A stretch of DNA of 64,000 bases from Armatimonadota bacterium (GCA_023511535.1 JAIMBK010000002.1:1900-65899); one strand, 5' to 3'. Numbered from the stretch's first letter, positions 1,522 through 43,589 are shown. A program made the numbers and translations. Notes: a model not told the origin generated them from the letters alone.

Positions 1522-3441
1522 CTATGAGGTAAGGTACCTGAGCCAGTAATCGGTAAAGTGATTGCTGGTGAGTTTTTGCAGGCGCAAGATGGCTGCAAAA
1601 GCGTCCTTGAGGAGCGATTGCTCGGTTTTGTTCAGCTGGTAAGGGTTGATATAATTGTCCGCTTCTTTACCCTGCCGGACCTTTTTTAAATTCTCCCGGA
1701 TGCGCAGCATCATCAGGGTTTCAAAAGCATTTTGCACAAATTCACCGTCTTCTTTAGAGATAATCTCCCTCTTGGTAATCCGGGCCAGCCTGCCCAGGGT
1801 AGACGGTTCTTCAATTTCGTTCCGGACGGCAAAAACGCGCACGCAATTAATGATGTGCCGGCAGGCGGTTTTCAGGTTTATTTCATTTTTATGCGGCCCC
1901 GTCTTTTCGGTTGCAAACCCGCCGAAAAAAGTAAGCGGAACCCGCGTCCGCACCTCTTCTTCGGTTAAAAAGTGCGACGCCTTCACCGGCTTTTGAAAAA
2001 CGTGAAAAATATGCTGCCACAATTCCTGGCCCAGATTTTTCGCTCCGTAGACCGGCCGGAAATCCAAAAGAATGGTCAGCAGGCGGATGTCTTCCGGCTC
2101 GGCGCGGACAACCCAGGAGGTAACTACTTCCTTCCATTGCGTCAAAGATCGGCACCATTGCGGGTTGGAAGCCATCACCCCGCCCTTGCACCAGGCAAAA
2201 CCGGCGCGCACCAATTCTTCGGCGATCCGGGCGCCCAGGGTTTGAAAATACCGGGCACCGGCCGGGTCGCCGGCGGCGTAAATGATGGCGTTGTCCTGGT
2301 CGGTGCGCAGGCTCTGTTCCTTGCGGCCGGCGCTGCCCATATTGACCCAGCAATACTCCCCGGGGGGCGGGCCGTACCCTTTCTTGATCATTTCCTGTTC
2401 GCACAATTCGATTACCCGGCAGGTCAGGCGGTCGTGCATTTCGGTGATGATCTCGAACAGCTCCGGCACCGATGCCCGTTCGGCCACCAGGTAGTTTAAG
2501 AAATTATCCACTTCCTGGCCTATTTTCGCCAGATCGTCCAGGTTTTTGGCCGTCTCGATTTTATCCGTGACCCAGAGGCTGCCGGTACTTCTGGTTTTAA
2601 TTAAATCCCTTAAAGTGAGAATCCCGGCCAGCTTATCCCCGTCCATCACCACCAGATGCTTGACCTGGTGCTTCACCACGGCTAAAAGCGCCTGGTTGTA
2701 AAAATCATCGATCTGCACTCTGACCAGCTTTTCGTCCATCACCAGGTCGGCGCTCAAATTTTCCGCCTGCCAGGAAGGACGGGTCACCACTTTATGGACC
2801 AGGTCTTTTTCCGTGATCAGGCCGACGGGATAACCGGCGTCGTCGACTACAATCACCGAGCTAATCCGGTAGTCAGCCATTAAACGGGCAACGGAAGTGA
2901 CGGGCGTCTGCAGGCGGCAGGTAACGGGGGAGGGAGTCATGATTTCGCTGACCCTTTTCCGCAAAAGCGGAGATTCCGTCGTGCTGTACGCCTCGTAGGA
3001 TTGCTGGGCCACCGTTTCCTCGTAAAGCAGGCGCAGCCGCTCGGAAAGCAGGGCGGTGAAAAAGCCGGCAAATTCGGGGTGGCTGGCGATCAGTTCCTCT
3101 ATTTTTTCCCGCGGGACGAGCAGGCAGGTTAAATCTTCCGCTGCGCGCACCGAACCGCCGTACGACTTATCGGTCAGGAGGGCCGTCTCCCCAAAAAAAT
3201 CGTGCTGCCGGCGGTAGCTCACAACCGTTTCCTGGCCCCGGTCGTCGGTTAAAGTGACCTCTCCCAGCCCGGAGGCAATTAAAAAAAGAACCTGCAGGCT
3301 TTTTTGCCCCTGCCGGAAGACATACGCCCCCCGCGGGTAAGTTTTTACCTCCACGTGTCCGGCCAGTTCCGCCACCGTCGCTTCGTCCAGGGAACTAAAC
3401 GGCACACTCGCCTTTAAAACCTCTTTAACATTGACTTCCAC
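1522..3441 (-). CDS. cyclic-nucleotide-binding + CBS-pair + DUF294-type putative nucleotidyltransferase signal protein
   Basis: N-terminal cNMP-binding-like segment (FRQGQ...FFGETALL), tandem CBS segments (VSEIMTPSPVTC..., GILTLRDLI), then a C-terminal nucleotidyltransferase-like region (GSAGRKEQSLRTDQDNAIIY). Confidence 0.8.
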   Translation of the reverse strand: MEVNVKEVLKASVPFSSLDEATVAELAGHVEVKTYPRGAYVFRQGQKSLQVLFLIASGLGEVTLTDDRGQETVVSYRRQHDFFGETALLTDKSYGGSVRAAEDLTCLLVPREKIEELIASHPEFAGFFTALLSERLRLLYEETVAQQSYEAYSTTESPLLRKRVSEIMTPSPVTCRLQTPVTSVARLMADYRISSVIVVDDAGYPVGLITEKDLVHKVVTRPSWQAENLSADLVMDEKLVRVQIDDFYNQALLAVVKHQVKHLVVMDGDKLAGILTLRDLIKTRSTGSLWVTDKIETAKNLDDLAKIGQEVDNFLNYLVAERASVPELFEIITEMHDRLTCRVIELCEQEMIKKGYGPPPGEYCWVNMGSAGRKEQSLRTDQDNAIIYAAGDPAGARYFQTLGARIAEELVRAGFAWCKGGVMASNPQWCRSLTQWKEVVTSWVVRAEPEDIRLLTILLDFRPVYGAKNLGQELWQHIFHVFQKPVKASHFLTEEEVRTRVPLTFFGGFATEKTGPHKNEINLKTACRHIINCVRVFAVRNEIEEPSTLGRLARITKREIISKEDGEFVQNAFETLMMLRIRENLKKVRQGKEADNYINPYQLNKTEQSLLKDAFAAILRLQKLTSNHFTDYWLRYLTS

Positions 3442-3627
3442 CGAACAAGCCTCCCCGCCGGCCAGGGATAAAAACGCTTTCTCGCAATTTTAACATAAAA
3501 TTATTTTCTTAACAATAACAAAGTCAGGTTAAAAGCAAAAAGCCGTCAGCACATAACCAGGGCAACGCGCCGGCAAAGGCGGCTGCCGGTGGTTTTTCGC
3601 TAACGGCTGCCGGCGCTTTTAAACCCG

Positions 3628-4512
3628 CTATAGGAGTTTCAACTCCGCCAGCACCTTTTTGATGCTTTCCTTTTCCGCGGGCGTTGCCTCTACCAGGGGC
3701 AAACGCGGCGGTCCCGCCTGAAATCCCAGCATGTTCAAGGCGGCTTTCACCGGTACGGGGTTGGTGGTGATAAAAAGACCCTTGAAAATAGGATAAAGCT
3801 GCAGGTGAATCTGGGTGGCCAGAGTTACGTTCCCGGCCATAAAGGCGTTGACCATTTCCTTGATCCGGGGCCCCACCACGTGCGAAGCCACGCTCACCAC
3901 GCCTTTGGCCCCCAGGGAAAGCATGGGCAAAGTCAGGGAATCGTCCCCGCTGTAGATGGCGAAATGATCCGGGAGCAGGCGGCGCAGTTCGCTGACCTGA
4001 TCCATGCTCCCCGCCGCCTCTTTGATGGCGACAATGTTCTCGATTTCCGCCAGCCGGGCGACCGTTGCCGGGAGCAGGTTCACCCCCGTCCGGCCGGGGA
4101 TATTATAAAGCAAAACGGGCAAATTGGTGCTTTTGGCGATAGTTTTAAAATGCTGGTACAGCCCCTCCTGGGAGGGTTTATTGTAATACGGCGCCACCAG
4201 CATCACACCGTCCACGCCGACCTTTTCGGCCGCCTGGGTCAGGGCCACGCTGCCCGCCGTATCGTAACTGCCCGTACCGGCCAGAACCGTCGCCTGCCCG
4301 CCGACTTCCTCCACAATGACGCGAAACAGCTCAATCTTTTCTTCTTTGGACAAAGTCGGTGATTCACCTGTGGTGCCGGCTACCACGAGGCCGTCGGAAC
4401 CCGCTTCGGCCAGATGCCGGGCAAGTTTTCTGGCCTGATCGTAATTTACCGCCATATCCTTATCAAAGGGCGTCACCATGGCAGTAAGCACGCGCCCAAA
4501 ATCAGTAGCCAA
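3628..4512 (-). CDS. dapA: 4-hydroxy-tetrahydrodipicolinate synthase
   Basis: Full-length DapA-like sequence (TAMVTPF..., [34 protein letters not shown]). Confidence 0.95.
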
Positions 4513-15557: not shown

Positions 15558-16910
15558 TTGGAAGGAGATATACCGATTAAGAAAGGTGTTTTGGACCCGC
15601 TGCCGGAAGAGCTCTATTTGCGGTGCGTGCACTGCGGGATGTGCGTGCGGAACTGTCCGACCTTTCAGGAAACCGGGCTGGAAATGGATTCACCCCGGGG
15701 ACGGGTGCAGTTGCTGCGGGGCCTCAACCGGGGTGAACTGGCTGCTGGTCCGGGCCTTTTCCGGACGATCTGGAGCTGCCTGGACTGCCGGGCCTGCGAG
15801 GCGGTCTGTCCGTCGGGGGTGCGCATCGGGTTTTTGGTGGAGGAGGCGCGCGGGCAGTTTTTCGAAGGCGGTTATCGGCGCAGCAAGGGGGCTTTCCTGC
15901 TGAACCTGGCCATGCGCTTTCTTTTCCCCTACCCCGGGCGACTGGAACTGGCCGGGCGGCTTTTGCGCTTTTACCAGCGCTCCGGCTTGCGGACCGCAGC
16001 CCGGCGGCTGGGCATCCTGAGGCTTTTTCCGCCCGCCGTCCGGGAAATAGAACGAATTTTACCGGAAGTCCCGGCCAAAACGGCCAGGGCAATTCTGACC
16101 GGGGCAAATCAAAACGGAAGGGAAGAAAACGGAACAGGGGTAAAGGCGGGAAACGGCCGCACCGCGGGCCTTTTTTTGGGCTGTGTGATGGACGTCCTTT
16201 TCGCCGAAATAAACCTGGCCACGGCCCGCCTCCTGGAGCGGCACGGCTTCCAGGTGACGGCCCCGGCCGGCCAGCGCTGCTGCGGTGCCCTGCACCTGCA
16301 TAACGGCAGCCGCGAGCAGGCCAAAAAGCTGGCCCGCCGGAATATCGACGCCTTCCTGGCGGCCGGGGTGGATTACGTAGTGACCAACGCCGGCGGGTGC
16401 GGGGCGGCTCTTCGGGAGTACCCGGAGCTTCTCGCCGGCGACCCCGTTTACGCGGACAGGGCGCGGGAATTTTCCCGGAAAGTAATTGACATCGCCCAGC
16501 TTCTGGAACAAACCGGTTTTCTCCCGCCGCGGGGCTCTTTCCCCCGCCAGGTTGCTTACCAGGCCTCCTGCCACCTGAAAAACGTCATGGGGGTCGCCGA
16601 CGCCCCCAAGCGTCTGCTCCGGCAGGTGCCGGGGCTCACGCTGCTGGAGATGCCCGACGAAGCCCGCTGCTGCGGCAGCGCCGGCATCTACAACCTCACC
16701 CACCCGGAAATGGCCGAGGCCCTTTTGCGCCGCAAGATGGCCGACCTCCCGCCCGGCACGGAGGTCATCGCCACCGGCAATCCCGGCTGCCTATTGCAGC
16801 TCATGCACGGGGCGGAAAAATACGGCCCGCCCGTGCAGGTCAAACACGTGGTCGAAATCCTGGAGGAGGCCTACGCGGCGGGTGAGCGCAAAAAAGTTAC
16901 CCTAACTTAA
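15558..16910 (+). CDS. glcF: Fe-S oxidoreductase, GlcF-like (2x[4Fe-4S] ferredoxin motifs + two CCG domains)
   Basis: 'CVHCGMCVRNCP' and 'CLDCRACEAVCP', plus two cysteine-rich CCG-type repeats ('CCGALH...', 'CCGSAG...GNPGC'). Confidence 0.85.
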   Translation: MEGDIPIKKGVLDPLPEELYLRCVHCGMCVRNCPTFQETGLEMDSPRGRVQLLRGLNRGELAAGPGLFRTIWSCLDCRACEAVCPSGVRIGFLVEEARGQFFEGGYRRSKGAFLLNLAMRFLFPYPGRLELAGRLLRFYQRSGLRTAARRLGILRLFPPAVREIERILPEVPAKTARAILTGANQNGREENGTGVKAGNGRTAGLFLGCVMDVLFAEINLATARLLERHGFQVTAPAGQRCCGALHLHNGSREQAKKLARRNIDAFLAAGVDYVVTNAGGCGAALREYPELLAGDPVYADRAREFSRKVIDIAQLLEQTGFLPPRGSFPRQVAYQASCHLKNVMGVADAPKRLLRQVPGLTLLEMPDEARCCGSAGIYNLTHPEMAEALLRRKMADLPPGTEVIATGNPGCLLQLMHGAEKYGPPVQVKHVVEILEEAYAAGERKKVTLT

Positions 16911-17330
16911 TTCAAGTATCCGGAGAAATTCGGCGGGCGTGATAATTTTTATCCCTTTGTACATACTTAATTCCAGGAGGTGTTTGTTTCCGCTGACAGT
17001 ATAATCTGCTTCCGATTCGACGGCGGTAGCAATGAAAATGTCGTCATCCGGATCGGCGCTCACTATTTTAACTTCCCTTTGACCGGGAACGACTGTAGCC
17101 AGGCGCTTTAGACCGGCAATAAATTTACCTGGTAAATTTTCCCCGAGATGATGAAAGTAACGCTTGATTTTTTCCCTGTGGAGGACTTCATTAATTTCGG
17201 CGATTATTTTTGGAGACACAACCAGCTCGAACTTCCCCGCCCGCCAGGCGGCAAGTAGCTTGGCCGGTGTTCCGCGAGGACTAATCAAGCCGGAAATCAA
17301 AACATTGGTGTCGAGGACCGCCTTTCTCAT
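16902..17330 (-). CDS. PIN-domain toxin (type II TA)
   Basis: 'AVLDTNVLISGLISPRGTPAKLL' PIN N-terminal acidic motif and a later 'DPDDDIFIATA'. ATGA start/stop overlap with the upstream antitoxin gene. Confidence 0.8.
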   Translation of the reverse strand: MRKAVLDTNVLISGLISPRGTPAKLLAAWRAGKFELVVSPKIIAEINEVLHREKIKRYFHHLGENLPGKFIAGLKRLATVVPGQREVKIVSADPDDDIFIATAVESEADYTVSGNKHLLELSMYKGIKIITPAEFLRILELS

Positions 17331-17602
17331 CTTTTTTTCCGGCGAACTTCTTGAACAGCTTCCAGAACGTCTTTTTCTGCCTGTTCTTGATCTGCATCTT
17401 TATTGGCCTCCCAAACCTCGCCAATTAAATTAAAAAACTCTTCCTTTTCTTTCTGCCATTTTTGATACTCGCTGATGGGGATAATAGCCGCCATCGGCTT
17501 TCCCCGCCGGGCAATGATAAATTGATTTCCGCTATAATAGGCTTCCTCTATAATTTGACCCAGCTTATCCCTGGCTTCCATGGGACTGATTATCCTTTCC
17601 AA
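17327..17602 (-). CDS. Phd/YefM-family antitoxin
   Basis: 'ISPMEARDKLGQIIEEAYYSGNQFIIARRGKPMAAIIPISEYQ' is a typical Phd/YefM N-terminal fold sequence. Start set at the TTG preceded by GGAGGTG. Confidence 0.75.
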   Translation of the reverse strand: MERIISPMEARDKLGQIIEEAYYSGNQFIIARRGKPMAAIIPISEYQKWQKEKEEFFNLIGEVWEANKDADQEQAEKDVLEAVQEVRRKKR

Positions 17603-17631
17603 ATAAAACACCTCCAAATTTGGCAATTAAG

Positions 17632-17810: not shown

Positions 17811-20800
17811 ATGAGCGTAGAAATTGAAAAAATTGCCCTGGAACAGGCTGCCGTGGTCGCCAGGGAGTTGCGGCAGGCAGCAAACCGCGGCGGAACGGAA
17901 GCGGATTTCCGGCGGGAAGCCGCCCGGATTATGGAAGCGGCGGGCAGCGCAGCCGGCCTGACGATCGTTCCCCGGGACGAATTTTCCGTGGCCCGGGGTC
18001 GGGTGGATTCGGTTTATAACCGACTTATCCTGGAATATAAAAAACCGGGCATCCTTAAACCCACAAATAAGGGACACGCCAACCAGGAAGCGATCCGGCA
18101 GGTTAAAAATTACATCCTCGACGTAGCCGTAAGGGAACGCCGGGAAGCCCACCGGCTTTCCGGAGTGGTCACGGACGGCTTCCATTTCATTTTTGTCCGT
18201 CGCGTTGGCGAAGGCTGGTCTATCGATGACCCGGCCCCCGTCACCCCGGCCACAACGGAGCGTTTTCTACGCCTTCTCTTTTCGCTTTCCGCCGGAGCGG
18301 CACTCATCCCCGAAAATTTGCTCGAAGACTTCGGACCGCGTACACTACGTGCCCAACGGGCGGTGCGAGCGCTTTACACCGCTCTTCATACCAGCAAACA
18401 TCCCCTGGTGGTCAAGCTCTTTGAGCAATGGCGGCTCTTTTTCAGCGAAGCGACTGATTACAAAGAATGGGCTGAACGGATCGAAAACAAAGAAGAATTC
18501 CGTAACTTTGTCACCGGAATGGGAATCAGTCTGGAACTGCACGATCTTGAATACGAAATATCGGGAAGAAGGGCCGGGGCGAGAACGCACCGCGATCCCC
18601 ATTTAGCTGCCAGGGTCTTCTTCGCTCTCCATACCTACTACGCGCTGCTCATCAAACTGGTGGCCTCTCTTGCGGCAGCCCGGTTCGCCGGGAACTCCTC
18701 CGCTCCCCTGGCAAACTCCCCGGTTAAAGAAGGGGATGCCTTGCGGAGAACTTTCCTGGAACTGGAAAGGGGAGGTCTCTTTAGAGAATACGGAATTCGC
18801 AATTTCCTGGAGGGCGACTTTTTCGGATGGTACCTTGCCGCCTGGAACGAAGACATTGAAGAAGCAACCGGCCAGCTGGTCCAGCGCCTGGCCGAATACG
18901 ATCCGGGCGCCCTGGAACTGGCTCCGGAAAATGCCCGCGACCTTTTAAAGAAGCTTTATCACTATCTTTTGCCCCGGGAGATCCGCCACGATCTCGGCGA
19001 ATATTACACCCCGGACTGGCTGGCCGAGCGCCTCGTCCGGCAAACCCTCGGGCAGGCCGACCTCGGGAACGCGACCAGGCGCGTGCTCGATCCTTCTTGC
19101 GGGTCAGGTACTTTTCTGGTCATCCTCATCAAACATATCCGCGACCGGGCAGCGCGCAAAAATCAGAACCCTTCGGAAACATTGGAACTCATTTTGAAAA
19201 ACGTTGTCGGGATCGACCTGAACCCTCTGGCGGTAATCGCTGCCCGCACAAATTATCTCCTGGCCCTGGGCGACTTGTTGAAACACAGAAAAGGTGAAAT
19301 CGATATCCCCGTTTACCAGGCGGACTCAATTCTTACCCCTTCGCAGGGGACAGGCTTGTTCGACGGCGATGTTTACCCCTTAAAAACATCCGCCGGCGTT
19401 TTTCGCATCCCTGCCGTTTTTGCCGGCCAGGAACGAATGGACTGTCTAAGCAACGTTCTCGACGAAGCCGTTGAGGCGGGGATCGGGGAAGGCGCCTTTC
19501 TTGCCCGCCTGACAAAAGCAGCCCGGCTGGAGCCGGAGGAACTGTCGGCCGCCGAGAACGAACTGAAGGCTCTCTACCGGCAACTCCGGGAACTGCACGA
19601 ACAGGGCTTAAACGGCGTCTGGGCCCGGATCATTAAAAATGCTTTTGCGCCGCTTTTCCTTGAGCCTTGCCACTATATTGTCGGCAATCCCCCCTGGGTA
19701 AATTGGGAACACCTGCCGGATGAATACCGGCAGCAAACCAAGCCTTTATGGGAGCACTACGGTCTTTTCCCCCACGGCGGGATGGACACCATCCTCGGCA
19801 AAGGAAAGAAAGACATCTCCATGCTGATGACCTACGTGGCGGCGGACCGCTACTTGCGGCGGGGCGGCAAGCTGGGTTTCGTCCTTTCCCAAAGCCTTTT
19901 TAAAACTTCCGGGGCCGGGCAGGGTTTCCGGCGCTTTCTTTTACCCGACAAAACCCCCTTCGGCCCCCTGGCGGTGGAAGACATGGTGGAGCTGAAGCCC
20001 TTTGAAGGAGCGACGAACCGCACCGCCGTGGCCGTTTTTGCCAAGGGCCACCCGGTGCGCTACCCGGTATCTTACCAGTACTGGAAAAAGAGGAGCGAAG
20101 GCCGGGGGAGCGCCATCGGTTTCGATACACCGTACGAGGAAGTGACTACGGAAAAGGTTACCTTTCGCAAGTGGTTCGCCGAACCGGTGGACAGGGCGGA
20201 AGAGACCTCGGCCTGGATCACGGCCAGGGAACTGGCCCTGCGCGCTCTTCGCAAAGTTTTGGGTAAGTCACCTTACTCAGCACACGCAGGTTCATTTACA
20301 GGCGGCGTCAATGGGATTTACTGGGTGGAAATTACGGGGTTCAGGCCCGGCGGCCTGGCCATCGTCGCCAACATCACGGAAGGGGTCAGGCGGAAAATCC
20401 CCCCTACCCAGGCCGCGGTCGAACTCGACCTCCTCTACCCCCTGCTGCGCGGCCGCGACGTCCGCCGTTGGCAGGCCGCCCCGTCGGCGCACATTTTAAT
20501 GACGCAGGATCCGGCAACCCGGCGGGGCATTGCCAGAGAAAAAATGGAAGGGAATTACCCGAAAGCCCACGCCTACCTTTCCAGGTTCGAAAAAATCCTC
20601 CAAAACAGACCCGCTTTCCGCCGTTATTTCCGGGAAAATGACCCGTACTGGTCGATGTTTAACGTAAGCCCCTTTACCTTTTCCCCCTGGAAGGTCGTCT
20701 GGCGCGAGGTGGCCAATGAATTAGACGCCGCGGTGGTTGGCCAGATGCCCGCCGGCGACCGCGTTAAACCGGTAATTCCGGACCATACCTGTATTCTCGT

Positions 20801-21128
20801 CGAATGTAAAACGCAGCAAGAGGCGCATTATCTTTGCGCCGCCATCAATTCCAGCCCGGCCCGGCTGGCCGTCCGCAATTACATTGTGCTTCATCCCGAT
20901 CCCCATGTTTTAAACAACCTGAACATTCCTCGTTTTACCGCCGGGGACGAGCGGCACCGGACGCTGGCCGCCCTTTCCCGGGCGGCGCACGAAGCGGCCG
21001 CCAAAGGAGAGGCCGGGGAAATAAAGCGGATTGAAGACGAGATCGACCGGTGGGCCGCCCGGCTGTGGGGCCTGACCGGCGAGGAGCTGGCCGAAATCAA
21101 GCAATCGCTGGAGGAAAGCCTGAAATGA
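17811..21128 (+). CDS. type IIG/IIL-like fusion: N-terminal PD-(D/E)xK nuclease-like domain + gamma-class N6-adenine DNA methyltransferase + target-recognition region (1105 aa)
   Basis: D66-x8-E75-x-K77 in 'GRVDSVYNRLILEYKKPG' (18006-18041), 'EYYTPDWLAE', motif I 'VLDPSCGSGTF' (about 19083-19115), motif IV 'NPPW' (19686-19697), and a C-terminal 'RLWGLTGEELAEI' helix typical of Eco57I/MmeI/PglX-like enzymes. Confidence 0.8.
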   Translation: MSVEIEKIALEQAAVVARELRQAANRGGTEADFRREAARIMEAAGSAAGLTIVPRDEFSVARGRVDSVYNRLILEYKKPGILKPTNKGHANQEAIRQVKNYILDVAVRERREAHRLSGVVTDGFHFIFVRRVGEGWSIDDPAPVTPATTERFLRLLFSLSAGAALIPENLLEDFGPRTLRAQRAVRALYTALHTSKHPLVVKLFEQWRLFFSEATDYKEWAERIENKEEFRNFVTGMGISLELHDLEYEISGRRAGARTHRDPHLAARVFFALHTYYALLIKLVASLAAARFAGNSSAPLANSPVKEGDALRRTFLELERGGLFREYGIRNFLEGDFFGWYLAAWNEDIEEATGQLVQRLAEYDPGALELAPENARDLLKKLYHYLLPREIRHDLGEYYTPDWLAERLVRQTLGQADLGNATRRVLDPSCGSGTFLVILIKHIRDRAARKNQNPSETLELILKNVVGIDLNPLAVIAARTNYLLALGDLLKHRKGEIDIPVYQADSILTPSQGTGLFDGDVYPLKTSAGVFRIPAVFAGQERMDCLSNVLDEAVEAGIGEGAFLARLTKAARLEPEELSAAENELKALYRQLRELHEQGLNGVWARIIKNAFAPLFLEPCHYIVGNPPWVNWEHLPDEYRQQTKPLWEHYGLFPHGGMDTILGKGKKDISMLMTYVAADRYLRRGGKLGFVLSQSLFKTSGAGQGFRRFLLPDKTPFGPLAVEDMVELKPFEGATNRTAVAVFAKGHPVRYPVSYQYWKKRSEGRGSAIGFDTPYEEVTTEKVTFRKWFAEPVDRAEETSAWITARELALRALRKVLGKSPYSAHAGSFTGGVNGIYWVEITGFRPGGLAIVANITEGVRRKIPPTQAAVELDLLYPLLRGRDVRRWQAAPSAHILMTQDPATRRGIAREKMEGNYPKAHAYLSRFEKILQNRPAFRRYFRENDPYWSMFNVSPFTFSPWKVVWREVANELDAAVVGQMPAGDRVKPVIPDHTCILVECKTQQEAHYLCAAINSSPARLAVRNYIVLHPDPHVLNNLNIPRFTAGDERHRTLAALSRAAHEAAAKGEAGEIKRIEDEIDRWAARLWGLTGEELAEIKQSLEESLK

Positions 21129-22255
21129 GGAACCCTTTTGCCGGCCTCCAGCCGGCCCTCGCGGTGATCTGCCGGGAAGGCAAGGTTCTCCCGGCCACCG
21201 GGCAGGCGATGGAGGATCTGATGCGACCGGATCACGAAGAGGTCATTGACCGTCTTCGCACGGGCGACGAAAAAGTTTTGGACGTCCTCGCGGAAGCACC
21301 AAACCGCCGGCCCTGCGTGGAGTTGACGCCCCTTCACCGGACCAGGCGGCACCTGTTCCGTTATTTCCTGGACGGGTCGGCCCGGACCTTCTTCCTGGGC
21401 GACGTGGTGGAAGGCAACCGGCGCAGCCCGGTCCACGTTGCCCAAATCGGAGCGGCGGCGGTCTTCCGGAAGGACAACGGACAGATCAAGGTGGCCCGGG
21501 TAAAACACCGGATCGTGCTCATGATGGACAAAAATGCCGTCTCCTTCGGAGAAAAGGTCCAGGAACTGGTGCAAAGGGCCGGGCCCGGGTACGCCTTCCA
21601 CGATACCATGGAAGAAGACGGAGAAACGGAGCAGACCGCTCCGGGAAAAGAGCCCCGTTCCCGGGCGGCACATAAAGCACACCATCTGATGGCCAAACTC
21701 GAAGACGAACTCGGCCGCAGCCTGGAGCGCCCGGACGGGCACTGGCTGGTCCTGGACGGCAGCCTGGGCAAGGATTTGCACGCCTGGAAAAATGTCCGGC
21801 ATTTTCTGGGCGTAACCAAGTCTTTCAGCCGCGAACCGGTCTTTAAGCTTCCCGGCGCCCGGGGAGGAAAAATAGTCAATCTTTACGAACTCCTGGCCGG
21901 ACTCCCGTTTGCAGCGAGAACCTGCGCCTACGCAACCCGTGCCGGCAAGGCCGCCTTCTGGTACGTCCGGATCAGAGAGCAAAGACACCTGGATTATCCA
22001 CTGATGGGGGTGGTGAAGGTGGAACTCCCCAACCCGGCAGGCGAGGCGGTACCTTCCTCCCTCATCGACGAAATTTCGGCGGCGCTCGTCGCGGAACGCC
22101 AGGCAACGCCGCACGGCCGGGACAGCCGCTGGCACGCCCACCTTTATCCCGTCTATCTGGCGGAACAGGCGGTAAAAAACGGTTTTGTTACCCGGGATGT
22201 CCTGAAGGCGGGACTGAAGTGGCCGGTTGCCGCCGGCGGCCCTGCCTCACTTTGA
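21125..22255 (+). CDS. NurA-like nuclease (RNase-H-fold 5'-3' exo/endonuclease family), 376 aa
   Basis: Ordered motifs 'YFLDGSARTF', 'AKLEDELGR', 'WLVLDGSLGKDL' and C-terminal 'HLYPVYLAEQAV' match the NurA catalytic layout as I remember it. ATG 21125 overlaps the upstream stop (ATGA). Confidence 0.6.
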   Translation: MRNPFAGLQPALAVICREGKVLPATGQAMEDLMRPDHEEVIDRLRTGDEKVLDVLAEAPNRRPCVELTPLHRTRRHLFRYFLDGSARTFFLGDVVEGNRRSPVHVAQIGAAAVFRKDNGQIKVARVKHRIVLMMDKNAVSFGEKVQELVQRAGPGYAFHDTMEEDGETEQTAPGKEPRSRAAHKAHHLMAKLEDELGRSLERPDGHWLVLDGSLGKDLHAWKNVRHFLGVTKSFSREPVFKLPGARGGKIVNLYELLAGLPFAARTCAYATRAGKAAFWYVRIREQRHLDYPLMGVVKVELPNPAGEAVPSSLIDEISAALVAERQATPHGRDSRWHAHLYPVYLAEQAVKNGFVTRDVLKAGLKWPVAAGGPASL

Positions 22256-22283
22256 TTGATCGCAAAGGAGGTTCACAGCAGCT

Positions 22284-24050
22284 ATGGCGGAGGAAATGGA
22301 AAAAATGGTGAACGAACCGGTGAGCGAAGCAGGCCGGATCATCGGAAAGGCTTCGGCGACCGAACGCGAACCGAACTCTTCCGAAAAGTTTTTCTTCTGG
22401 CTGGCCCCCGAAGAAATCGTCAACCCCTTCGACATCGTTGAGGCGGAGCAGATGGAGGGTACCCGCACCTTCGGCCTGGTCACCAACATCAGGCAAATTA
22501 CCGATGCCCCGTCGCACCTTTCCAACTTTATCGCCAGCGATTTCGGGAGTACCGCGACAACGCCCCAGACCCCCCGCCAGGGGGCAAATGTGGCCGAGGT
22601 CAGCGTGCTGGCCAACCACGACCCCTCCGAACCCAAGCGCTACCCCATGGGTATTTACATGCCGGTGCAGAACGAAGCGCCGGTGCGGTTCGCGGAAGAA
22701 CAGGGGATCCACGTGGCCCTGGGCATCGACAAGATGTTCGAATACGAAAAAGAACACAGAGAAAAAATCACTATCCCTGCCGGACTGATCCGGATGTCCA
22801 ACGGCACCCGGGTACGCGTGTACCTCGATAAGCGGTACGTCCTGGGACCGGAGGGCGCCCACGTGAACATCGCCGGAATTTCCGGCCTGGCGACCAAAAC
22901 ATCCTACGCCCTGTTCCTTATCCAGTCAATCCTGCAAACCGCCGGCACCAAAGACATCGCGGTCATCCTGCTGAACGTCAAACAAAACGACCTCCTGGTC
23001 ATTGACCGGCCCCGGAAAGGGATGAAGCCGGAGGAGCACGAGCTCTGGGAGTTCCTCGGCCTCAGGCCCAAGCCCTTTGAAAATGTACGCTACCTGCTTC
23101 CCTGGGGAAAGGAAACCCAAACCACGGGGCTTCCCAATTGTTTCGGCGAGCCCCCGGACCAGTTCCTGACTTATGCCTATTCCTTAGAAGATGTGATCGG
23201 CAACCGGTTGCGTCCCGGTCCCGGCCTGGGCCTGCTCATTCGCGTTCCCGACCCGTGGGATACCCTGGGCGCTTTGATCGGGGAAATTCAACATGGAATC
23301 ATGAATCAAGAGCCCAGGTGGCGAAGCGTAACTACCTGGAACAGCCTCTTGAACGGCCCTCCCTTGATGGAGAAGGGCGTTCCCCAGGCGGTCGGCGAAG
23401 TCCGCGCTTCGTCCGTGGGGCGTTTTGTGCGCATCCTCCGCCGGGTGGTCCGCAACCGGCAGTCCGGGGTGTTCGTAGAGCAGCGCGCTGCGCGCCGAGC
23501 CGCCAACCTGGGGGACGAAATCCGCCGGATCGAGGGCGGGCAGATTACCGTGGTCGATCTTGCCAAACTAACCGACGAAGAACGGGCGCTGGTTTTCGGC
23601 CACATTATCCAGGAGGTTTACGGAATGTACGCCGAAGCCACCGTTGACGAAAGAAACGACCTCCCCAGGAGGGTGATCATTTTCGTCGACGAACTGAACA
23701 AATACGCGCCGGCCCGCCGGGGGGAAGGAGAGTCCTCAATTCTGGAATACGTGCTGGACATTGCGGCCCGGGGCCGTTCCCTGGGGGTAGTGCTGATTTC
23801 CGCCGAACAATTTATGAGCGAGGTTCACGGGCAGGTAATCGGAAATTGCGCGACAAAGGTAATCGGCCGGAGCGATTCTTCCGAACTCGCCGACGCCGCC
23901 TACCGGTTTATCGCCCAGGACGTGAAAGCGCACCTGACGCGCCTGGACAAGGGTGAGCTCCTGCTCGCCCATCCGATTTACCGGCAGCCGGTGAAGATTG
24001 AATTTCCAAAGCCCGCTTACCAGTTTATCGGGCATGAACACCTGAGATGA
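22284..24050 (+). CDS. HerA/FtsK-like hexameric ATPase (DUF87-type) with a non-canonical P-loop
   Basis: N-terminal barrel-like segment (GRIIGKASA...FFFWLAPEE...FGLVTNI), P-loop region 'AGISGLATKTS' (22875-22904), Walker B 'RVIIFVDELNKY', and 'RGRSLGVVLISAEQFMSEVHGQVIGNCATKVIGR' typical of HerA/FtsK. AAAGGAGG RBS upstream. Confidence 0.7.
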   Translation: MAEEMEKMVNEPVSEAGRIIGKASATEREPNSSEKFFFWLAPEEIVNPFDIVEAEQMEGTRTFGLVTNIRQITDAPSHLSNFIASDFGSTATTPQTPRQGANVAEVSVLANHDPSEPKRYPMGIYMPVQNEAPVRFAEEQGIHVALGIDKMFEYEKEHREKITIPAGLIRMSNGTRVRVYLDKRYVLGPEGAHVNIAGISGLATKTSYALFLIQSILQTAGTKDIAVILLNVKQNDLLVIDRPRKGMKPEEHELWEFLGLRPKPFENVRYLLPWGKETQTTGLPNCFGEPPDQFLTYAYSLEDVIGNRLRPGPGLGLLIRVPDPWDTLGALIGEIQHGIMNQEPRWRSVTTWNSLLNGPPLMEKGVPQAVGEVRASSVGRFVRILRRVVRNRQSGVFVEQRAARRAANLGDEIRRIEGGQITVVDLAKLTDEERALVFGHIIQEVYGMYAEATVDERNDLPRRVIIFVDELNKYAPARRGEGESSILEYVLDIAARGRSLGVVLISAEQFMSEVHGQVIGNCATKVIGRSDSSELADAAYRFIAQDVKAHLTRLDKGELLLAHPIYRQPVKIEFPKPAYQFIGHEHLR

Positions 24051-25291
24051 TGCCGACGATGGTAAACTACCCGGTTGAAGAAAGACAGGCCTGGCGGCGG
24101 TGGGTGACTCCAAAACCCTTGCAGGATAAGCCCATCCACCGCTGGTACGTTTTTCCGCACAGCTTTACCAGCGAGCTGGTTCACGCTCTGATTGAGGAAT
24201 GGGGCCTTGGGCCGGCAGATTACCTCCTCGACCCTTTTGCCGGGGCGGGGACAACCTTACTGGCGGCAAAAGAGAGAGGGATCCCGGCCGTCGGTTACGA
24301 TCTGTCTCCGCTGGCCGTGCTGGTCACCCGGGCGAAAATCGCCCATTACAGTTTGCCCGGCCTTTTCCGGACCTGGCACCGGCTTAAAGAGAGTCTGAAT
24401 CCCGGCCGCTGGACCGGTCCCGCCCGGAATTACCCCGACCTCGTCCAAAAAGCCCTCCCGAACCGTGTCCTGGCCGCTTTCGACGCAATTGACGGGAACA
24501 TCGCCGGCCTTTCGGGCACGGAAACGGAACGCTGCTTCTTCCGCACCGCCTTACTCGCCATTCTTCCCCGGTATAGCCGCGCCGTCGCCACCGGCGGGTG
24601 GCTGAAATGGGTCGCCAGCCAAGCCGACGTTGCCGATATCCCGGCCGCCCTGACCGGGCGCGTGGAAACGATGCTGGCGGATCTCCAGGAAGTAAAATTC
24701 CCGCGCCGTTCCCGGTGGTGGCGCATCGGGCGGGCGGATGCCCGGCAGCTTCCCGACCCCTCGTCCGTCTATTCGGCCGTCATCACTTCCCCGCCTTACC
24801 CCAATCGCCACGACTACACCCGGGTCTTCGGAATCGAGCTCATGTTTGGTTTCCTGGATTGGAGCGAGCTCCGGAAGCTCCGGTACCAGAGCTTCCACTC
24901 CCATCCCGAGGCCCGCCCGGAGCGGCCGGCGGCAAAAGACTACGCGCCTCCGGCGGGGCTCGTTCGGTCGGTTGCGGAGATCCGCGCCAAAAGCAACGAC
25001 CCCCGGGTTTCCCGGATGATCGAGGGGTATTTTCTCGACCTGTACATCTGCCTCCGGGAACTCCGGCGGGTCTGCCGGCCCGGGGCGAAAGTGGCGCTTG
25101 TGGTGGGAAATGCCCAGTACTGCGGGGAACCGGTGCTCGTCGACGAACTGACGGCCGAAATCGGGGAGCGGGCCGGTTTAACCTGCGAGAAACTCCTGGC
25201 GGTGCGCTACCGGGGCAACAGCGCCCAACAAATGGGTATTTACGGACGGAATCCTTCCCGGGAAAGCGTAGTTATCTTCCGGAACATATGA
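24047..25291 (+). CDS. DNA amino-methyltransferase (N6-adenine or N4-cytosine), motif I before motif IV
   Basis: 'LLDPFAGAGTTLLAAKERG...GYDLSPLA' (motif I) and 'VITSPPYPNRHDY' (motif IV, about 24787-24798). ATGA overlap with the HerA-like stop. Confidence 0.8.
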   Translation: MMPTMVNYPVEERQAWRRWVTPKPLQDKPIHRWYVFPHSFTSELVHALIEEWGLGPADYLLDPFAGAGTTLLAAKERGIPAVGYDLSPLAVLVTRAKIAHYSLPGLFRTWHRLKESLNPGRWTGPARNYPDLVQKALPNRVLAAFDAIDGNIAGLSGTETERCFFRTALLAILPRYSRAVATGGWLKWVASQADVADIPAALTGRVETMLADLQEVKFPRRSRWWRIGRADARQLPDPSSVYSAVITSPPYPNRHDYTRVFGIELMFGFLDWSELRKLRYQSFHSHPEARPERPAAKDYAPPAGLVRSVAEIRAKSNDPRVSRMIEGYFLDLYICLRELRRVCRPGAKVALVVGNAQYCGEPVLVDELTAEIGERAGLTCEKLLAVRYRGNSAQQMGIYGRNPSRESVVIFRNI

Positions 25292-41085: not shown

Positions 41086-42162
41086 CTATGCGTCGGCATA
41101 ATATTCGGCGTACTCCTGCCGGTAAATTTCCTGGATTTGCGTTTCGCTCTTGATGTCGATTTTCCAGCCCGTCAGCTTTGCCGCCAGGCGGGCGTTCTGA
41201 CCGTCTTTGCCGATAGCCAGCGAAAGCTGGTAGTCGGGCACAATTACGCGCGCAATTTTTTCCTGCTCCCAGATTTCCACGGCGGTGACCTTCGCCGGGC
41301 TTAAAGAGGCGGCAATATACTTGGAGTAATCGGAATTCCACTTGATGACGTCAATCTTTTCGCCGTTCAATTCCCGAACAATGTTCTGGATGCGCGTACC
41401 CTTCGGCCCCACGCAGGCGCCCACCGGATCGACGTTTTCGTCCTGGGAGTAAACGGCGATTTTGGAGCGGTAGCCGGCTTCCCGGGCGATCCCTTTCAAC
41501 TCTACAATCCCTTCGTAAAGTTCCGGCACCTCCAGTTCCAAAAGCCGCTTTAAAAGACCGGGGTGGGTCCGGGAAACGAGGATTTGCGGCCCTTTCGTGG
41601 TCTTCCTGACCTCCAGGATATAGGTCTTCAACCGGCTTCCCGGGCGGTAAACCTCCCCGGGCAGCTGTTCCCCCGGAGTTAAAACAGCTTCCGCCTTCCC
41701 CAGTTCCAGGTAAACGTTCTTTTGCTCGGTGCGCTGGACGACTCCGGTCACAACGTCCCCTTCCCGGTTGGCATAATCCTCGTAAATCAGGTTGCGCTCC
41801 GCCTCCCGGATGCGCTGCATAACCACCTGTTTGGCCGTCTGGGCGGCAATGCGCCCGAAATTCCGGGGTGTGATTTCGGTTTCGATCACGTCCCCGACCT
41901 GATAATTGGGATCTTTCTGCCGCGCTTCGGCCAAAGCAATTTGAAACCGGGGATCCTCCACTTCCTCCACCACGGTCCGCTGGCTGAAGACCTGGAAATC
42001 GCCTGTTTCCCGGTTTATATGCACACGCGCGTTCTGGGCCGTGCCGAAATTGCGTTTATAGGCGGAAAGCAAGGCGGCCTCTATAGCCTCGACCAGTATG
42101 TCAACGGAAACACCCTTCTCTTTTTCTAAGGCATAAAGGGCTTCCAGAAACTCGTGGTTCAT
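41086..42162 (-). CDS. nusA: transcription termination/antitermination factor NusA
   Basis: '[18 protein letters not shown]' N-terminus, S1 domain and two KH domains. Start at Met23 of the ORF after GGAGG. Confidence 0.97.
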
Positions 42163-42181
42163 TTTGCAATCCCCTCCCTCC

Positions 42182-42661: not shown

Positions 42662-42965
42662 TTTTATCTTTATTTAAGACGAAAGAGTGGGCGCTACCCA
42701 CTCCTTTCTTCCAACAACTCGCTCACCAAACCGGTGTTTTCGCCGGAAAACCGCTCTCTCCCGGAAAACCACACCTAGTATACCACAGATCACTTCCGTT
42801 GACAAGAATATCAGGAGAAATAATTTATCAAAGGATCTTTAAAAAACTGCCGTGCCGCCGGTAGAATCCCGCCGGTAGAACCAACCGGGCGCCGGGGAGG
42901 TTCAAAAGCAAGCCAATGCGTGAAAAGCAATGCCCGGGGAGCGGCCATGTGGCCATCCATTCATA

Positions 42966-42994
42966 TTGACAGGTTTGGGGGTAATCTGTTATAT
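42966..42994 (+). promoter_or_regulatory. candidate sigma-A promoter for the XRE regulator gene
   Basis: TTGACA (42966-42971) - 17 nt - TTATAT, then a GAGGGTG RBS before ATG 43024. Confidence 0.4.
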
Positions 42995-43585: not shown

Positions 43586-43589
43586 ACAG

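What the first reader, a model, noticed from the sequence alone, without database searches (positions are those of the whole stretch)
17811..25291. Candidate undescribed defence system: type IIG-like nuclease/methylase - NurA - HerA - second methylase in one translationally coupled operon
Four same-strand genes are joined by ATGA stop/start overlaps at 21125-21128 (A/B) and 24047-24050 (C/D), and by a 28-nt B/C gap carrying AAAGGAGG. That indicates a single operon with coupled stoichiometry. A (1105 aa) has an HSDR_N/Mrr-like D-x8-E-x-K motif, gamma-class N6-adenine methylase motifs (VLDPSCGSGTF, NPPW) and an Eco57I/MmeI/PglX-style C-terminal region. B (376 aa) has the FLDGS ... EDE ... LVLDGSL ... 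YPVYLAEQA motif order of NurA nucleases. C (588 aa) is HerA/FtsK-like (Walker B VIIFVDELNKY, LISAEQ...NCATKVIGR). D (414 aa) is a separate amino-methylase (DPFAGAGTT, SPPY). Established knowledge: HerA-NurA is a DNA-end-resection translocase-nuclease machine in archaea and Deinococcus, and HerA pairs with SIR2 or DUF4297 effectors in known anti-phage systems. I know of no described system in which a HerA-NurA pair is nested between a restriction/modification fusion and a companion methylase. Working model (inference): A and D mark self DNA, A or NurA nicks or cleaves unmodified DNA, and the HerA-NurA complex then processively degrades it. The alternative is an Eco57I-like type IIG system (A+D) that has captured an independent HerA-NurA module.
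Basis: partly seen in the sequence, partly recalled or inferred. Interest (0 to 1): 0.9.

Follow-up and report, generated by a model that had tools for sequence, protein, structure and literature searches.

The report
Restriction enzyme coupled to NurA-HerA
The four genes are real and form one conserved operon, but it is not undescribed: it is a new copy of the Thermus "tdtA/DNA-secretion" operon (Tth111II-type restriction-methylase, NurA-like nuclease, HerA-like ATPase, second methylase), and whether that operon serves defence or DNA donation is still open.

Summary
Observation confirmed: four same-strand genes, at the stated coordinates, with ATGA overlaps at A/B and C/D.

- **A** is a full-length member of the Thermus TspDTI/Tth111II/TsoI family of type IIG enzymes: 46% identity to TsoI over 1,100 residues.
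- **B** is a divergent NurA. It has no Pfam hit, but its model's best structural matches are Deinococcus NurA and TM1739.
- **C** is a bacterial HerA (E=1e-44 to Deinococcus HerA).
- **D** is an N4/N6 methylase.

The claim that the arrangement is undescribed fails. Blesa et al. 2017 described the same four-gene operon in Thermus thermophilus ICETh1: Tth111II 1106 aa, NurA-like 377 aa, TdtA 568 aa, methylase 410 aa. The first three genes are needed for DNA donation ("transjugation").

- Translated Thermus primers reproduce B's RYFLDG and GVVKVE peptides exactly.
- The published flank of tspDTIRM encodes a B homologue that starts at an ATGA overlap.

New here:
- The cassette keeps its order in about 30 genomes of more than 12 phyla. 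C is 77-88% identical across them.
- It has no conserved ICE or defence-island context.
- A's DNA-recognition domain is swapped between near-identical strains.

Most likely mechanism: site-specific nicking or cutting by A feeds a NurA-HerA nuclease-translocase.

Verdict: new member of a known kind; moderate interest.

The parts
17811..21128 (+). Gene A: type IIG/IIC/IIS restriction-methylase fusion of the TspDTI/Tth111II/TsoI (Thermus) subfamily, 1105 aa
   Evidence: BLASTP to published TsoI: 46% identity over 1-1102 vs 1-1104, 917 bits. PADLOC REase_MTase_IIG PDLC03630, full length, 1180 bits. Pfam N6_Mtase/MmeI_Mtase/Eco57I. FVTGMG 233-238 and IVGNPPW 623-629 parallel Tth111II's FARGMG 234-239 and VVGNPPW 614-620.
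17811..18410 (+). A, N-terminal PD-(D/E)XK nuclease domain (residues ~1-200); D66, E75, K77
   Evidence: D66 and E75 are identical in all 17 orthologues that cover this region; K77 is K in 16 and E in 1. They align with TsoI's D-EXE catalytic centre.
18919..20210 (+). A, gamma-class N6-adenine methylase core (residues ~370-800); motif I DPSCGSG 427-433, motif IV NPPW 626-629
   Evidence: TspDTI family motifs are DPACGSG and NPPW (PMC3384240).
20211..20990 (+). A, C-terminal target-recognition domain (residues ~801-1060); hypervariable
   Evidence: Mean pairwise identity is 48-61% here against 75-84% in the methylase core. Window vs the near-identical L004: 40% identity at residues 901-950 in an otherwise ~100% identical protein. 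DNA identity is 83% at 20501-21000 against a 97-100% background.
21125..22255 (+). Gene B: divergent NurA-like (RNase H-fold) nuclease, 376 aa; ATGA overlap with A
   Evidence: AF2 model (pLDDT 74). Foldseek top hits: 7f6d_G D. radiodurans NurA (E=2e-11) and 1zup TM1739 (E=3e-6). Profile vs PDB: 7f6d_H NurA, E=0.013. D83, D211, E300, D333, H337, H339 and E347 are invariant. No Pfam, NCBIfam or PADLOC hit.
22264..22271 (+). Shine-Dalgarno-like AAAGGAGG in the 28-nt B/C spacer
   Evidence: Read from the sequence.
22284..24050 (+). Gene C: bacterial-type HerA/FtsK-superfamily ATPase (TdtA-like), 588 aa; Walker A GISGLATKTS 198-207, Walker B D469/E470, R496/R498
   Evidence: Profile vs PDB: D. radiodurans HerA 7f6d_B, E=1.2e-44, two colinear stretches. 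PADLOC mad8 1.3e-14 and HerA 6e-12, C-terminal part only. Motifs invariant in 19 cassettes. 58.5% identical to the ATPase that follows a TsoI-like enzyme in L037.
24047..25291 (+). Gene D: stand-alone N4/N6 amino-methylase, 414 aa; motif I DPFAGAGTT 62-70, motif IV SPPY 248-251; ATGA overlap with C
   Evidence: Pfam N6_N4_Mtase 5e-9. PADLOC MTase_II PDLC03224 7e-58 over 18-412. Motifs invariant. It is the most variable gene of the cassette, at 41-70% identity.

Best explanation
The locus is a Bacillota copy of a conserved, horizontally spread four-gene operon. The operon was first described in Thermus thermophilus ICETh1 as the tdtA or 'DNA secretion system' operon.

Components:
- A: a Tth111II/TspDTI-type type IIG restriction-methylase.
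- B: a NurA-like nuclease.
- C: a HerA/TdtA-like hexameric ATPase.
- D: a separate N4/N6 methylase.

Proposed mechanism:
1. A binds an asymmetric 5-6 bp site read by its variable C-terminal domain. It either methylates the site or nicks/cuts about 11/9 nt downstream. This is shown for Thermus relatives and inferred here.
2. These enzymes mostly nick, turn over poorly and digest incompletely. The nick or end is therefore handed to a NurA-HerA complex, which uses ATP to unwind, translocate and degrade or process the DNA (inferred).
3. A's own methylase, and possibly D, mark resident DNA (inferred).

The biological outcome is unresolved. I put destruction of unmodified incoming DNA (restriction/defence) at about 0.5 as the primary role. 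I put mobilisation of chromosomal DNA for transfer, as reported in Thermus, at about 0.3. The two need not exclude each other.
For: Identity of the parts:
- A.
- B.
- C.
- D.

Link to the Thermus operon:
- Same order and near-identical sizes: 1106/377/568/410 aa against 1105/376/588/414 aa (TdtA length).
- A is 46% identical over its full length to TsoI. TsoI is 50% identical to Tth111II.
- Thermus RT-PCR primers placed at the gene junctions translate to RYFLDG (= B 79-84, 6/6) and GVVKVE (= B 295-300, 6/6). Primer 3Fw gives IPRYEP, matching the A-like C-terminus in L037 at 5/6 (IPRYDP); AB192 gives DVRRWY, matching window A 883-888 (DVRRWQ) at 5/6. Control primers reach 5/7 identities at best.
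- The published tspDTIRM downstream flank holds an ORF that starts at an ATGA overlap and is 44% identical to B 8-122, E=4e-30.
- Bridging locus L037: a TsoI-like enzyme (62% identity) followed by B-like and C-like genes. Its C-like protein is 58.5% identical to C.

Functional coupling:
- ATGA overlaps.
- Cassette order kept across more than 12 phyla.
- All catalytic motifs invariant.
- No other conserved neighbour: of 125 flanking ORFs in 29 loci, no Pfam family recurs in more than 3.

Genetics in Thermus: loss of A, B or C lowers DNA donation by 3-5 logs or abolishes it. Loss of D has a minor effect.

Biochemistry of Tth111II: mainly top-strand nicking, low turnover, one-strand methylation.

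For a restriction-type role:
- The recognition domain of A is the fastest-evolving part and was swapped between two near-identical strains.
- No integrase or tRNA lies next to the cassette in the window, and neither integrase nor conjugation genes appear among the families that recur in the flanks elsewhere.
Against: - No direct alignment of C and D with TTC1879 and TTC1880 was possible. The tdtA primers give only 4/6 matches, which is within the range of the control primers.
- No phage or plasmid challenge data exist for any member. The only experimental phenotype is DNA donation.
- The cassette is not embedded in recognisable defence islands, and no relatives were found in viral contigs.
- D's variable region does not co-vary with A's recognition domain once cassette phylogeny is controlled (partial Mantel r=0.09, p=0.28). 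D as A's cognate protective methylase is therefore unsupported. In Thermus, D can be deleted.
- The model of C was poor (pLDDT 54), so no structural statement on a B-C complex can be made.
Confidence: 0.8

Rival explanations
1. Dedicated DNA-donation ('transjugation') machinery, as proposed for Thermus. A nicks the host's own chromosome at many sites. NurA trims the ends. The HerA-like TdtA hexamer at the membrane pumps dsDNA out to a competent neighbour. Restriction is not the selected function.
For: This is the only experimental evidence for this operon family. TTC1877, TTC1878 and TTC1879 are required for donation. TdtA forms ATPase hexamers with a pore of about 32 A and fractionates with the membrane. 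Transfer frequency tracks Tth111II site density. C also gives a weak NCBIfam hit to the archaeal DNA-import ATPase CedB (3e-5).
Against: - In the window there is no integrase, tRNA or att-like context.
- Across 29 loci no ICE, conjugation or competence genes recur.
- The cassette occurs in monoderm and diderm phyla, and a near-identical C is labelled archaeal. That argues for an envelope-independent, cytoplasmic activity.
- Hypervariable recognition domains are the hallmark of R-M specificity turnover.
- The Thermus 'retro-transfer' model itself invokes cutting of unmodified recipient DNA.
Confidence: 0.3
2. A previously undescribed anti-phage defence system.
For: No PADLOC, NCBIfam or Pfam model recognises B, and no model covers the four genes as one system. 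No paper found treats the operon as a defence system.
Against: The operon, its gene order, co-transcription and mutant phenotypes were published in 2017 and 2020. Furuta et al. 2010 had already listed TTC1877 and TTC1880 as a mobile R-M unit (cited). 'Undescribed' therefore does not hold. Only the defence function is untested.
Confidence: 0.05
3. Two independent modules that happen to sit together: an Eco57I-like type IIG system (A+D) into which a housekeeping HerA-NurA repair pair was inserted.
For: HerA-NurA pairs act on their own in DNA-end resection (D. radiodurans structure 7F6D). Variants without A (L016) or without D (L037) exist.
Against: - The A-B-C-D order is kept in 25 of the 33 loci, across more than 12 phyla.
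- A/B and C/D share ATGA overlaps here, and A/B also does in TspDTI.
- In Thermus the repair-type HerA (TTC0147) is a separate paralogue, only 31% identical to TdtA.
- B's family is small and distinct: 422 clusters among 1.84 billion representatives.
- A, B and C mutants share one phenotype.
Confidence: 0.05

Closest known systems
tdtA / DSS operon of ICETh1, Thermus thermophilus HB27 (TTC1877-TTC1880; Blesa et al. 2017 PLoS Genet, PMC5365140; PMC7767461)
   Same: The same four gene families in the same order, with near-identical sizes. A belongs to the same enzyme subfamily. B shares exact peptides with TTC1878. The genes are co-transcribed or translationally coupled.
   Different: The window copy is not in an ICE: there is no integrase, tRNA or direct-repeat context. 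A has the canonical D-ExK nuclease motif instead of the Thermus D-ExE. The host is an uncultured Bacillota MAG. C is 20 residues longer. Function has not been tested.
Thermus-family type IIC/IIG/IIS enzymes TspDTI, Tth111II/TthHB27I and TsoI (REBASE prototypes; PMC3384240, PMC3751577, PMC3899748)
   Same: Architecture R-helical-MTase-TRD, about 1100 aa. Motif I is DPxCGSG, motif IV is NPPW. 46% identity to TsoI end to end.
   Different: Those papers treated the enzymes as solitary R-M proteins and reported nothing relevant in the flanks. The recognition domain differs, so the specificity is unknown.
Bacterial HerA-NurA end-resection complex (Deinococcus radiodurans DR0837/DR0836, PDB 7F6D)
   Same: C matches DrHerA at E=1e-44, including the unusual Walker A GISG(L/V)ATKTSYA. 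DrNurA is the best structural match to the model of B. The genes are adjacent.
   Different: The housekeeping pair is not linked to R-M genes. B is too divergent for the Pfam NurA model. In Thermus the repair paralogue and the operon paralogue are distinct genes.
HerA-containing anti-phage systems (SIR2-HerA, DUF4297-HerA, MADS mad8)
   Same: A HerA-type ATPase is paired with an effector. C's C-terminal ATPase core hits mad8 and PADLOC HerA models.
   Different: There is no SIR2 or DUF4297 effector and no other MADS genes. The hits cover only residues ~410-580. The effector here is NurA plus a type IIG enzyme.
Eco57I-type type IIG systems with a separate companion methylase
   Same: An R-M fusion plus a stand-alone methylase in one operon. 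A has a Pfam Eco57I domain hit.
   Different: Two extra genes lie between them. There is no evidence that D shares A's specificity. D is dispensable in Thermus.

Membership tests
TspDTI subfamily of Thermus-type type IIC/IIG/IIS restriction-methylases | Single ~1100-aa polypeptide: N-terminal PD-(D/E)XK nuclease, helical linker, gamma-class m6A methylase, C-terminal TRD | tested here: met
   Full-length colinear alignment to TsoI, 46% identity, 917 bits. PADLOC IIG model matched over 16-1102.
TspDTI subfamily of Thermus-type type IIC/IIG/IIS restriction-methylases | Motif I DPACGSG-like and motif IV NPPW (as opposed to NPPY in the TspGWI/TaqII subfamily) | tested here: met
   DPSCGSG 427-433 and NPPW 626-629, invariant in 19 orthologues.
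TspDTI subfamily of Thermus-type type IIC/IIG/IIS restriction-methylases | Atypical D-EXE nuclease motif of the four characterised members | tested here: not met
   A has D66-x8-E75-x-K77. The TspDTI paper notes that other, putative homologues carry the typical D-EXK. This is therefore a subfamily variant and not an exclusion.
TspDTI subfamily of Thermus-type type IIC/IIG/IIS restriction-methylases | SAM-stimulated cleavage 11/9 nt from an asymmetric site; one-strand methylation | not testable with these tools
   Needs purified enzyme and a methylome.
NurA nuclease family | RNase H-like NurA fold | tested here: met
   Foldseek of the AF2 model (pLDDT 74, pTM 0.77): 7f6d_G NurA E=2e-11 and 1zup TM1739 E=3e-6, both at probability 1.00. 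The next hits are at E>=0.04.
NurA nuclease family | Match to the Pfam NurA model PF09376 | tested here: not met
   No Pfam hit at E<=0.1. Among 62 distant relatives of B, only 6 reach NurA, best E=2.2e-4. The sequence profile vs PDB NurA is marginal, E=0.013.
NurA nuclease family | Conserved acidic/histidine catalytic residues | tested here: inconclusive
   D83, D211, E300, D333, H337, H339 and E347 are invariant. They were not mapped residue by residue onto a solved NurA active site.
NurA nuclease family | Encoded next to a HerA ATPase | tested here: met
   B lies directly upstream of C, 28-nt spacer. The same holds in all related loci.
HerA/FtsK-superfamily ATPase (bacterial HerA clade) | Sequence homology to a solved HerA, including Walker A, Walker B and arginine finger | tested here: met
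   7f6d_B E=1.2e-44 over query 124-271 and 415-578. K205, D469/E470 and R496/R498 are invariant.
HerA/FtsK-superfamily ATPase (bacterial HerA clade) | N-terminal HAS-barrel and hexameric ring | tested here: inconclusive
   The AF2 model was poor (pLDDT 54; residues 1-149 below 50), so the fold was not searched. The hexamer is shown only for Thermus TdtA.
ICETh1 tdtA/DSS operon | Gene order: type IIG enzyme - NurA-like - HerA-like - PF01555 methylase, co-transcribed | tested here: met
   Order and sizes match. ATGA overlaps indicate coupling.
ICETh1 tdtA/DSS operon | Sequence homology of A and B to TTC1877 and TTC1878 | tested here: met
   A vs TsoI, plus Tth111II motif positions. Thermus primers encode RYFLDG and GVVKVE, identical to B. 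TspDTI flank ORF vs B, E=4e-30.
ICETh1 tdtA/DSS operon | Sequence homology of C and D to TdtA (TTC1879) and TTC1880 | tested here: inconclusive
   The Thermus sequences could not be fetched. The tdtA primer peptides give 4/6 matches, within control range. Indirect support: position, size, HerA family, and 58.5% identity of C to the ATPase of the TsoI-like locus L037.
ICETh1 tdtA/DSS operon | Carried on an integrative element (integrase, tRNA target, direct repeats) | tested here: not met
   No tRNA in the 64-kb window. The neighbours are a PIN/Phd pair and housekeeping genes. No integrase appears among the recurrent flank families in 29 loci.
ICETh1 tdtA/DSS operon | Required for DNA donation in transjugation | not testable with these tools
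   Genetic assay only.
MADS / SIR2-HerA / DUF4297-HerA defence systems | Signature partner genes (mad1-7; SIR2; DUF4297) | tested here: not met
   PADLOC: only partial mad8/HerA hits for C and weak mad2 methylase-domain hits for A and D. There are no SIR2 or DUF4297 hits, and B has no hit at all.

The most novel reading that the evidence does not exclude
The Tth111II-NurA-TdtA-methylase cassette is primarily a widespread, cross-phylum restriction system. In it a weakly cutting type IIG enzyme licenses a dedicated NurA-HerA machine to destroy unmodified DNA. The Thermus 'transjugation' phenotype is then a by-product of that DNA processing. This would make it a new class of ATP-dependent R-M system, and it would mean that the classical commercial enzymes TspDTI, TsoI and Tth111II have been studied without their natural partners.
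Probability: 0.4. Interest if true: 0.75.

Novelty: new member of a known kind. Interest (0 to 1): 0.5.

Why it matters
The finding links three literatures that have not been joined:
- the biochemistry of the Thermus type IIG enzymes, whose puzzling incomplete cleavage and nicking would make sense if NurA-HerA finishes the job;
- bacterial HerA-NurA;
- the Thermus transjugation system.

It also shows that the operon is not a Thermus curiosity. It is a tightly conserved cassette spread over many phyla, usually outside ICEs, with a recognition domain that is swapped between strains.

This makes the open question, defence or DNA donation, directly testable with a compact four-gene construct.

For annotation, B-type proteins (currently 'hypothetical', no Pfam) can be named NurA-like. 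The cassette could be added to defence-system and MGE finders as a candidate.

Tried and rejected
- **Structure of C:** pLDDT 54, too poor for a fold search. I relied on sequence homology to 7F6D instead.
- **Fetching Thermus homologues:**
  - The plasmid collection held only 24-37% identical relatives.
  - The last protein search, with the TspDTI-flank peptide, returned mostly fragments and no Thermus record, but it gave the bridging locus L037.
- **tdtA primers as proof of C = TdtA:** best 4/6, within control range, so inconclusive.
- **Test that D's variable region tracks A's recognition domain:** no signal after controlling for cassette phylogeny (partial Mantel r=0.09, p=0.28). In the single close pair, window vs L004, D does diverge more (5%) than B and C (0.5-1.4%). 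This is weak and unresolved.
- **Conserved accessory genes, ICE or defence-island context:** none.
- **Phage carriage:** no relatives in IMG/VR.
- **Promoter and terminator scan:** nothing above shuffled expectation on the + strand.
- **Rfam and tandem repeats:** nothing relevant.
- **Literature:** searches for a named HerA-NurA-methylase defence system found none. MADS, the Dnd 'HerA capture' systems, SIR2-HerA and DUF4297-HerA are all different.

Full report
**1. Observation**

ATGA stop/start overlaps occur at 21125-21128 and 24047-24050. A 28-nt B/C spacer carries AAAGGAGG at 22264-22271. The longest ORF for B starts at a GTG at 21050. Orthologues, however, align from the ATG at 21125, with P4, F5, L8 and P10 invariant.

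**2. What the four proteins are**

*A.* A hits Pfam N6_Mtase, MmeI_Mtase and Eco57I. It matches a REBASE-derived PADLOC type IIG model over its full length, at 1180 bits. The TsoI sequence is printed in Additional file 3 of PMC3384240. Against it, A aligns end to end (1-1102 vs 1-1104) at 46% identity and 917 bits. TsoI, TspDTI and Tth111II/TthHB27I form the 'TspDTI subfamily' of Thermus type IIC/IIG/IIS enzymes. Their features are motif I DPACGSG, motif IV NPPW, an R-helical-MTase-TRD layout, and cleavage 11/9 nt from an asymmetric site. A has DPSCGSG and NPPW. Its FVTGMG 233-238 and IVGNPPW 623-629 sit within nine residues of Tth111II's FARGMG 234-239 and VVGNPPW 614-620. A carries the canonical D66-E75-x-K77 where the four characterised Thermus enzymes have D-ExE.

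*B.* B has no hit in Pfam, NCBIfam or PADLOC.
- A profile of 40 orthologues finds D. radiodurans NurA (7f6d_H) as the best PDB sequence match, at a marginal E=0.013.
- An AlphaFold model (pLDDT 74, pTM 0.77) has exactly two significant Foldseek matches: D. radiodurans NurA (E=2e-11) and TM1739, the Thermotoga NurA-type RNase H-fold nuclease (E=3e-6). Everything else is at E>=0.04.
- In 1.84 billion representative proteins the B profile finds only 422 clusters. Its distant full-length relatives (hhalign E=6e-55 to B's family) reach Pfam NurA weakly in 6 of 62 cases.

B is therefore a divergent NurA-superfamily nuclease. D83, D211, E300, D333, H337, H339 and E347 are invariant.

*C.* C matches D. 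radiodurans HerA (7f6d_B) at E=1.2e-44 in two colinear stretches that include the unusual Walker A. PADLOC mad8 and HerA models hit only its C-terminal ATPase core. The structure model was too poor to use.

*D.* D is a PF01555 amino-methylase. Motif I lies before motif IV (SPPY), and it scores 7e-58 against a REBASE-derived type II methylase model.

**3. The arrangement is conserved and self-contained**

- B homologues of 70-78% identity and C homologues of 78-88% identity occur in MAGs labelled Bacillota, Acidobacteriota, Nitrospirota, Thermodesulfobacteriota, Planctomycetota, Omnitrophota, Bacteroidota, Elusimicrobiota, Actinomycetota, Methylomirabilota, Chloroflexota, Verrucomicrobiota, Deinococcota and Acetobacteraceae. 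One is labelled as a Methanomethylicaceae archaeon; this is a MAG label, so treat it with caution.
- In three contigs looked up by protein and 33 genome loci, tblastn finds A-B-C-D in the same order wherever the contig allows.
- Conservation falls in the order C (77-88%), then B (54-79%), then A (56-75%), then D (41-70%).
- Exceptions:
  - L016 lacks A.
  - L012 and L028 carry a three-gene insert between C and D.
  - L030, L032 and L035 are decaying copies.
  - L037 has a frameshifted B and no D.
- Of 125 ORFs flanking the cassette in 29 loci, 146 Pfam families were hit and none recurs in more than three loci. There is no conserved fifth gene and no consistent ICE, conjugation or defence-island context.
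- Close relatives are absent from IMG/VR viral contigs.

**4. It has been described before**

A full-text search for NurA, HerA and restriction-modification led to Blesa et al. 2017 (PMC5365140). In T. thermophilus HB27 the mobile element ICEth1 carries a four-gene operon:
- TTC1877: Tth111II, type IIG, 1106 aa.
- TTC1878: NurA-like, 377 aa.
- TTC1879: TdtA, HerA/FtsK ATPase, 568 aa.
- TTC1880: PF01555 methylase, 410 aa.

The four are co-transcribed. TdtA forms ATPase hexamers. Deleting tdtA abolishes DNA donation in 'transjugation'. Deleting the nurA-like gene lowers it 4-5 logs, and deleting Tth111II lowers it about 3 logs. A 2020 paper calls the operon the DNA secretion system (DSS) and reports that loss of the methylase has only minor effects (PMC7767461). 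The authors propose that the restriction enzyme nicks or cuts the chromosome at many sites and that NurA-TdtA uses these as transfer origins.

I could not retrieve the Thermus proteins, so I tested the equivalence in three other ways.

1. A vs TsoI (section 2); TsoI is 50% identical to Tth111II.
2. The paper's primer table, translated in six frames and compared with A-D.
   - 4Rv gives RYFLDG, identical to B 79-84.
   - 5Fw gives GVVKVE, identical to B 295-300.
   - AB192 gives DVRRWY, against A 883-888 DVRRWQ.
   - 3Fw gives IPRYEP, against IPRYDP near the C-terminus of an A homologue.
   - The positions fit the RT-PCR design across the gene junctions.
   - Fifteen primers from outside the operon give 5/7 identities at best.
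   - The tdtA primers give only 4/6 (IRHVTD vs C 69-74 IRQITD), which is not significant by itself.
3. The published sequence downstream of tspDTIRM (Additional file 2 of PMC3384240). It contains an ORF that starts at an ATGA overlap with the tspDTIRM stop codon and is 44% identical to B residues 8-122, E=4e-30. The TspDTI and TsoI papers state that nothing relevant was found in the flanks.

A search with the TspDTI-flank peptide (item 3) led to locus L037. It has an A-like protein 62% identical to TsoI, followed by a split B-like gene and a 566-aa C-like protein 58.5% identical to C.

Together these results show that the window operon and the Thermus operon are the same kind of cassette. For C and D this rests on indirect evidence.

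**5. Local context and micro-evolution**

In the window the cassette lies between a divergently oriented PIN_3/Phd-YefM toxin-antitoxin pair plus glycolate-oxidase-like genes on the upstream side and peptidase M16 plus PNPase on the downstream side. There is no tRNA in the 64 kb.

The closest genome locus is L004 (Bacillota MAG158).
- It shares the upstream flank at 85-95% DNA identity and the cassette at 97-100%.
- The exceptions within the cassette are A's recognition domain (83% at 20501-21000) and parts of D.
- Homology stops exactly at D's stop codon, 25291.
- At the protein level, A is about 100% identical except for residues 801-950, with 40% identity at 901-950. B is 99.5% and C 98.6% identical.

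This is a recombinational swap of the target-recognition domain, as seen in R-M systems.

Across 19 complete cassettes:
- A's TRD is the least conserved part of A.
- Its divergence is only weakly related to that of the rest of the cassette (Mantel r 0.27-0.50).
- It does not co-vary with D's variable region once C distance is controlled (r=0.09, p=0.28).

I therefore find no general support for D being A's cognate methylase.

**6. Mechanism**

*Shown for relatives:* Tth111II binds CAARCA, methylates one strand, mainly nicks the top strand, turns over poorly and needs several sites for double-strand cleavage.

*Established knowledge:* HerA hexamers with NurA dimers load at DNA ends and unwind and degrade DNA (7F6D).

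*Inferred here:* A supplies sequence-specific nicks or ends on unmodified DNA. NurA-HerA converts them into processive degradation or translocation. Methylation by A, and perhaps by D, spares resident DNA.

The outcome can be read two ways.
- As restriction. Favoured by the R-M ancestry, TRD turnover, lack of ICE or conjugation context, and spread across very different cell envelopes.
- As DNA donation. Favoured by the only genetic data available.

I put these at about 0.5 and 0.3. They are not mutually exclusive: the Thermus 'retro-transfer' model already assumes that the enzyme attacks unmodified recipient DNA.

**7. Novelty and score**

New from this work:
- a Bacillota member outside any ICE;
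- the breadth and unusually strong conservation of the cassette;
- the TRD swap;
- the overlooked NurA gene next to TspDTI.

No paper found treats the operon as a defence system, and no PADLOC model covers it as a unit.

I rate it a new member of a known kind, interest 0.5. There is a 0.4 chance that it is in fact a widespread ATP-dependent restriction system whose Thermus phenotype is secondary.

Noticed in passing
window 16902-17626 (- strand): A PIN_3 toxin (16902-17330, 142 aa) and a Phd/YefM antitoxin (17327-17626, 99 aa) sit directly upstream of the cassette and diverge from it. A promoter-like site (TTGACA-17-TAATAT with TG, 17680-17652, - strand) lies just before the antitoxin.
   Followed up: partly
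window 20211-20990 vs L004: Between two near-identical genomes, only A's recognition domain is replaced: residues 901-950 are 40% identical while the rest of A is ~100%. This looks like a recombinational specificity switch.
   Followed up: yes
window 25291/25292: DNA homology to the closest genome (L004, MAG158) ends exactly at the stop codon of D. The downstream genes differ (peptidase M16 and PNPase here). The cassette's 3' end is therefore a synteny breakpoint.
   Followed up: partly
window 22284-24050 and all related loci: C is 77-88% identical in amino acids across more than 12 phyla, while DNA identity is only ~73-76% (window vs L005). That is unusually strong purifying selection for a gene of a mobile or defence-type cassette. 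Unexplained.
   Followed up: no
L028:11658-14724 and L012 (between C and D): Two Acidobacteriota cassettes carry a ~3-kb, three-gene insert between C and D. It includes a STAND/AAA-type NTPase with weak BrxC/D, NACHT and nSTAND1 hits, plus two proteins with no Pfam hit.
   Followed up: partly
L016:8743-12976: A Bryobacteraceae locus has B-C-D but no A. Upstream are a zinc-ribbon protein and GFO/IDH/MocA oxidoreductases, so the NurA-HerA-methylase trio can persist without the type IIG enzyme.
   Followed up: partly
L037:6687-14626: A cassette of the TsoI-like clade: the A-like protein is 62% identical to TsoI, B is split by a frameshift (152 + 220 aa), and D is absent. Three tandem Uma2-family endonuclease genes lie on the opposite strand where D would be.
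   Followed up: partly
L030, L032, L035: Decaying copies of the cassette. L030 has an insertion in A and a frameshift in C. L032 has internal deletions in A, C and D. L035 keeps only short remnants.
   Followed up: no
PMC3384240 Additional file 2, bases 3334-3732 of the tspDTIRM contig: The published flank of the commercial enzyme TspDTI encodes the N-terminus of a NurA-like protein, starting at an ATGA overlap with the tspDTIRM stop codon. The original paper reported no relevant flanking genes.
   Followed up: yes
B orthologues in L006, L012, L016, L028: B falls into two sequence types: ~54-57% versus 65-79% identity to the window B. These types do not follow C's similarity, which suggests recombination inside the cassette.
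   Followed up: no
window 42001-48000: A stretch of lower G+C (0.51-0.53 against 0.56-0.61 elsewhere). Not examined.
   Followed up: no
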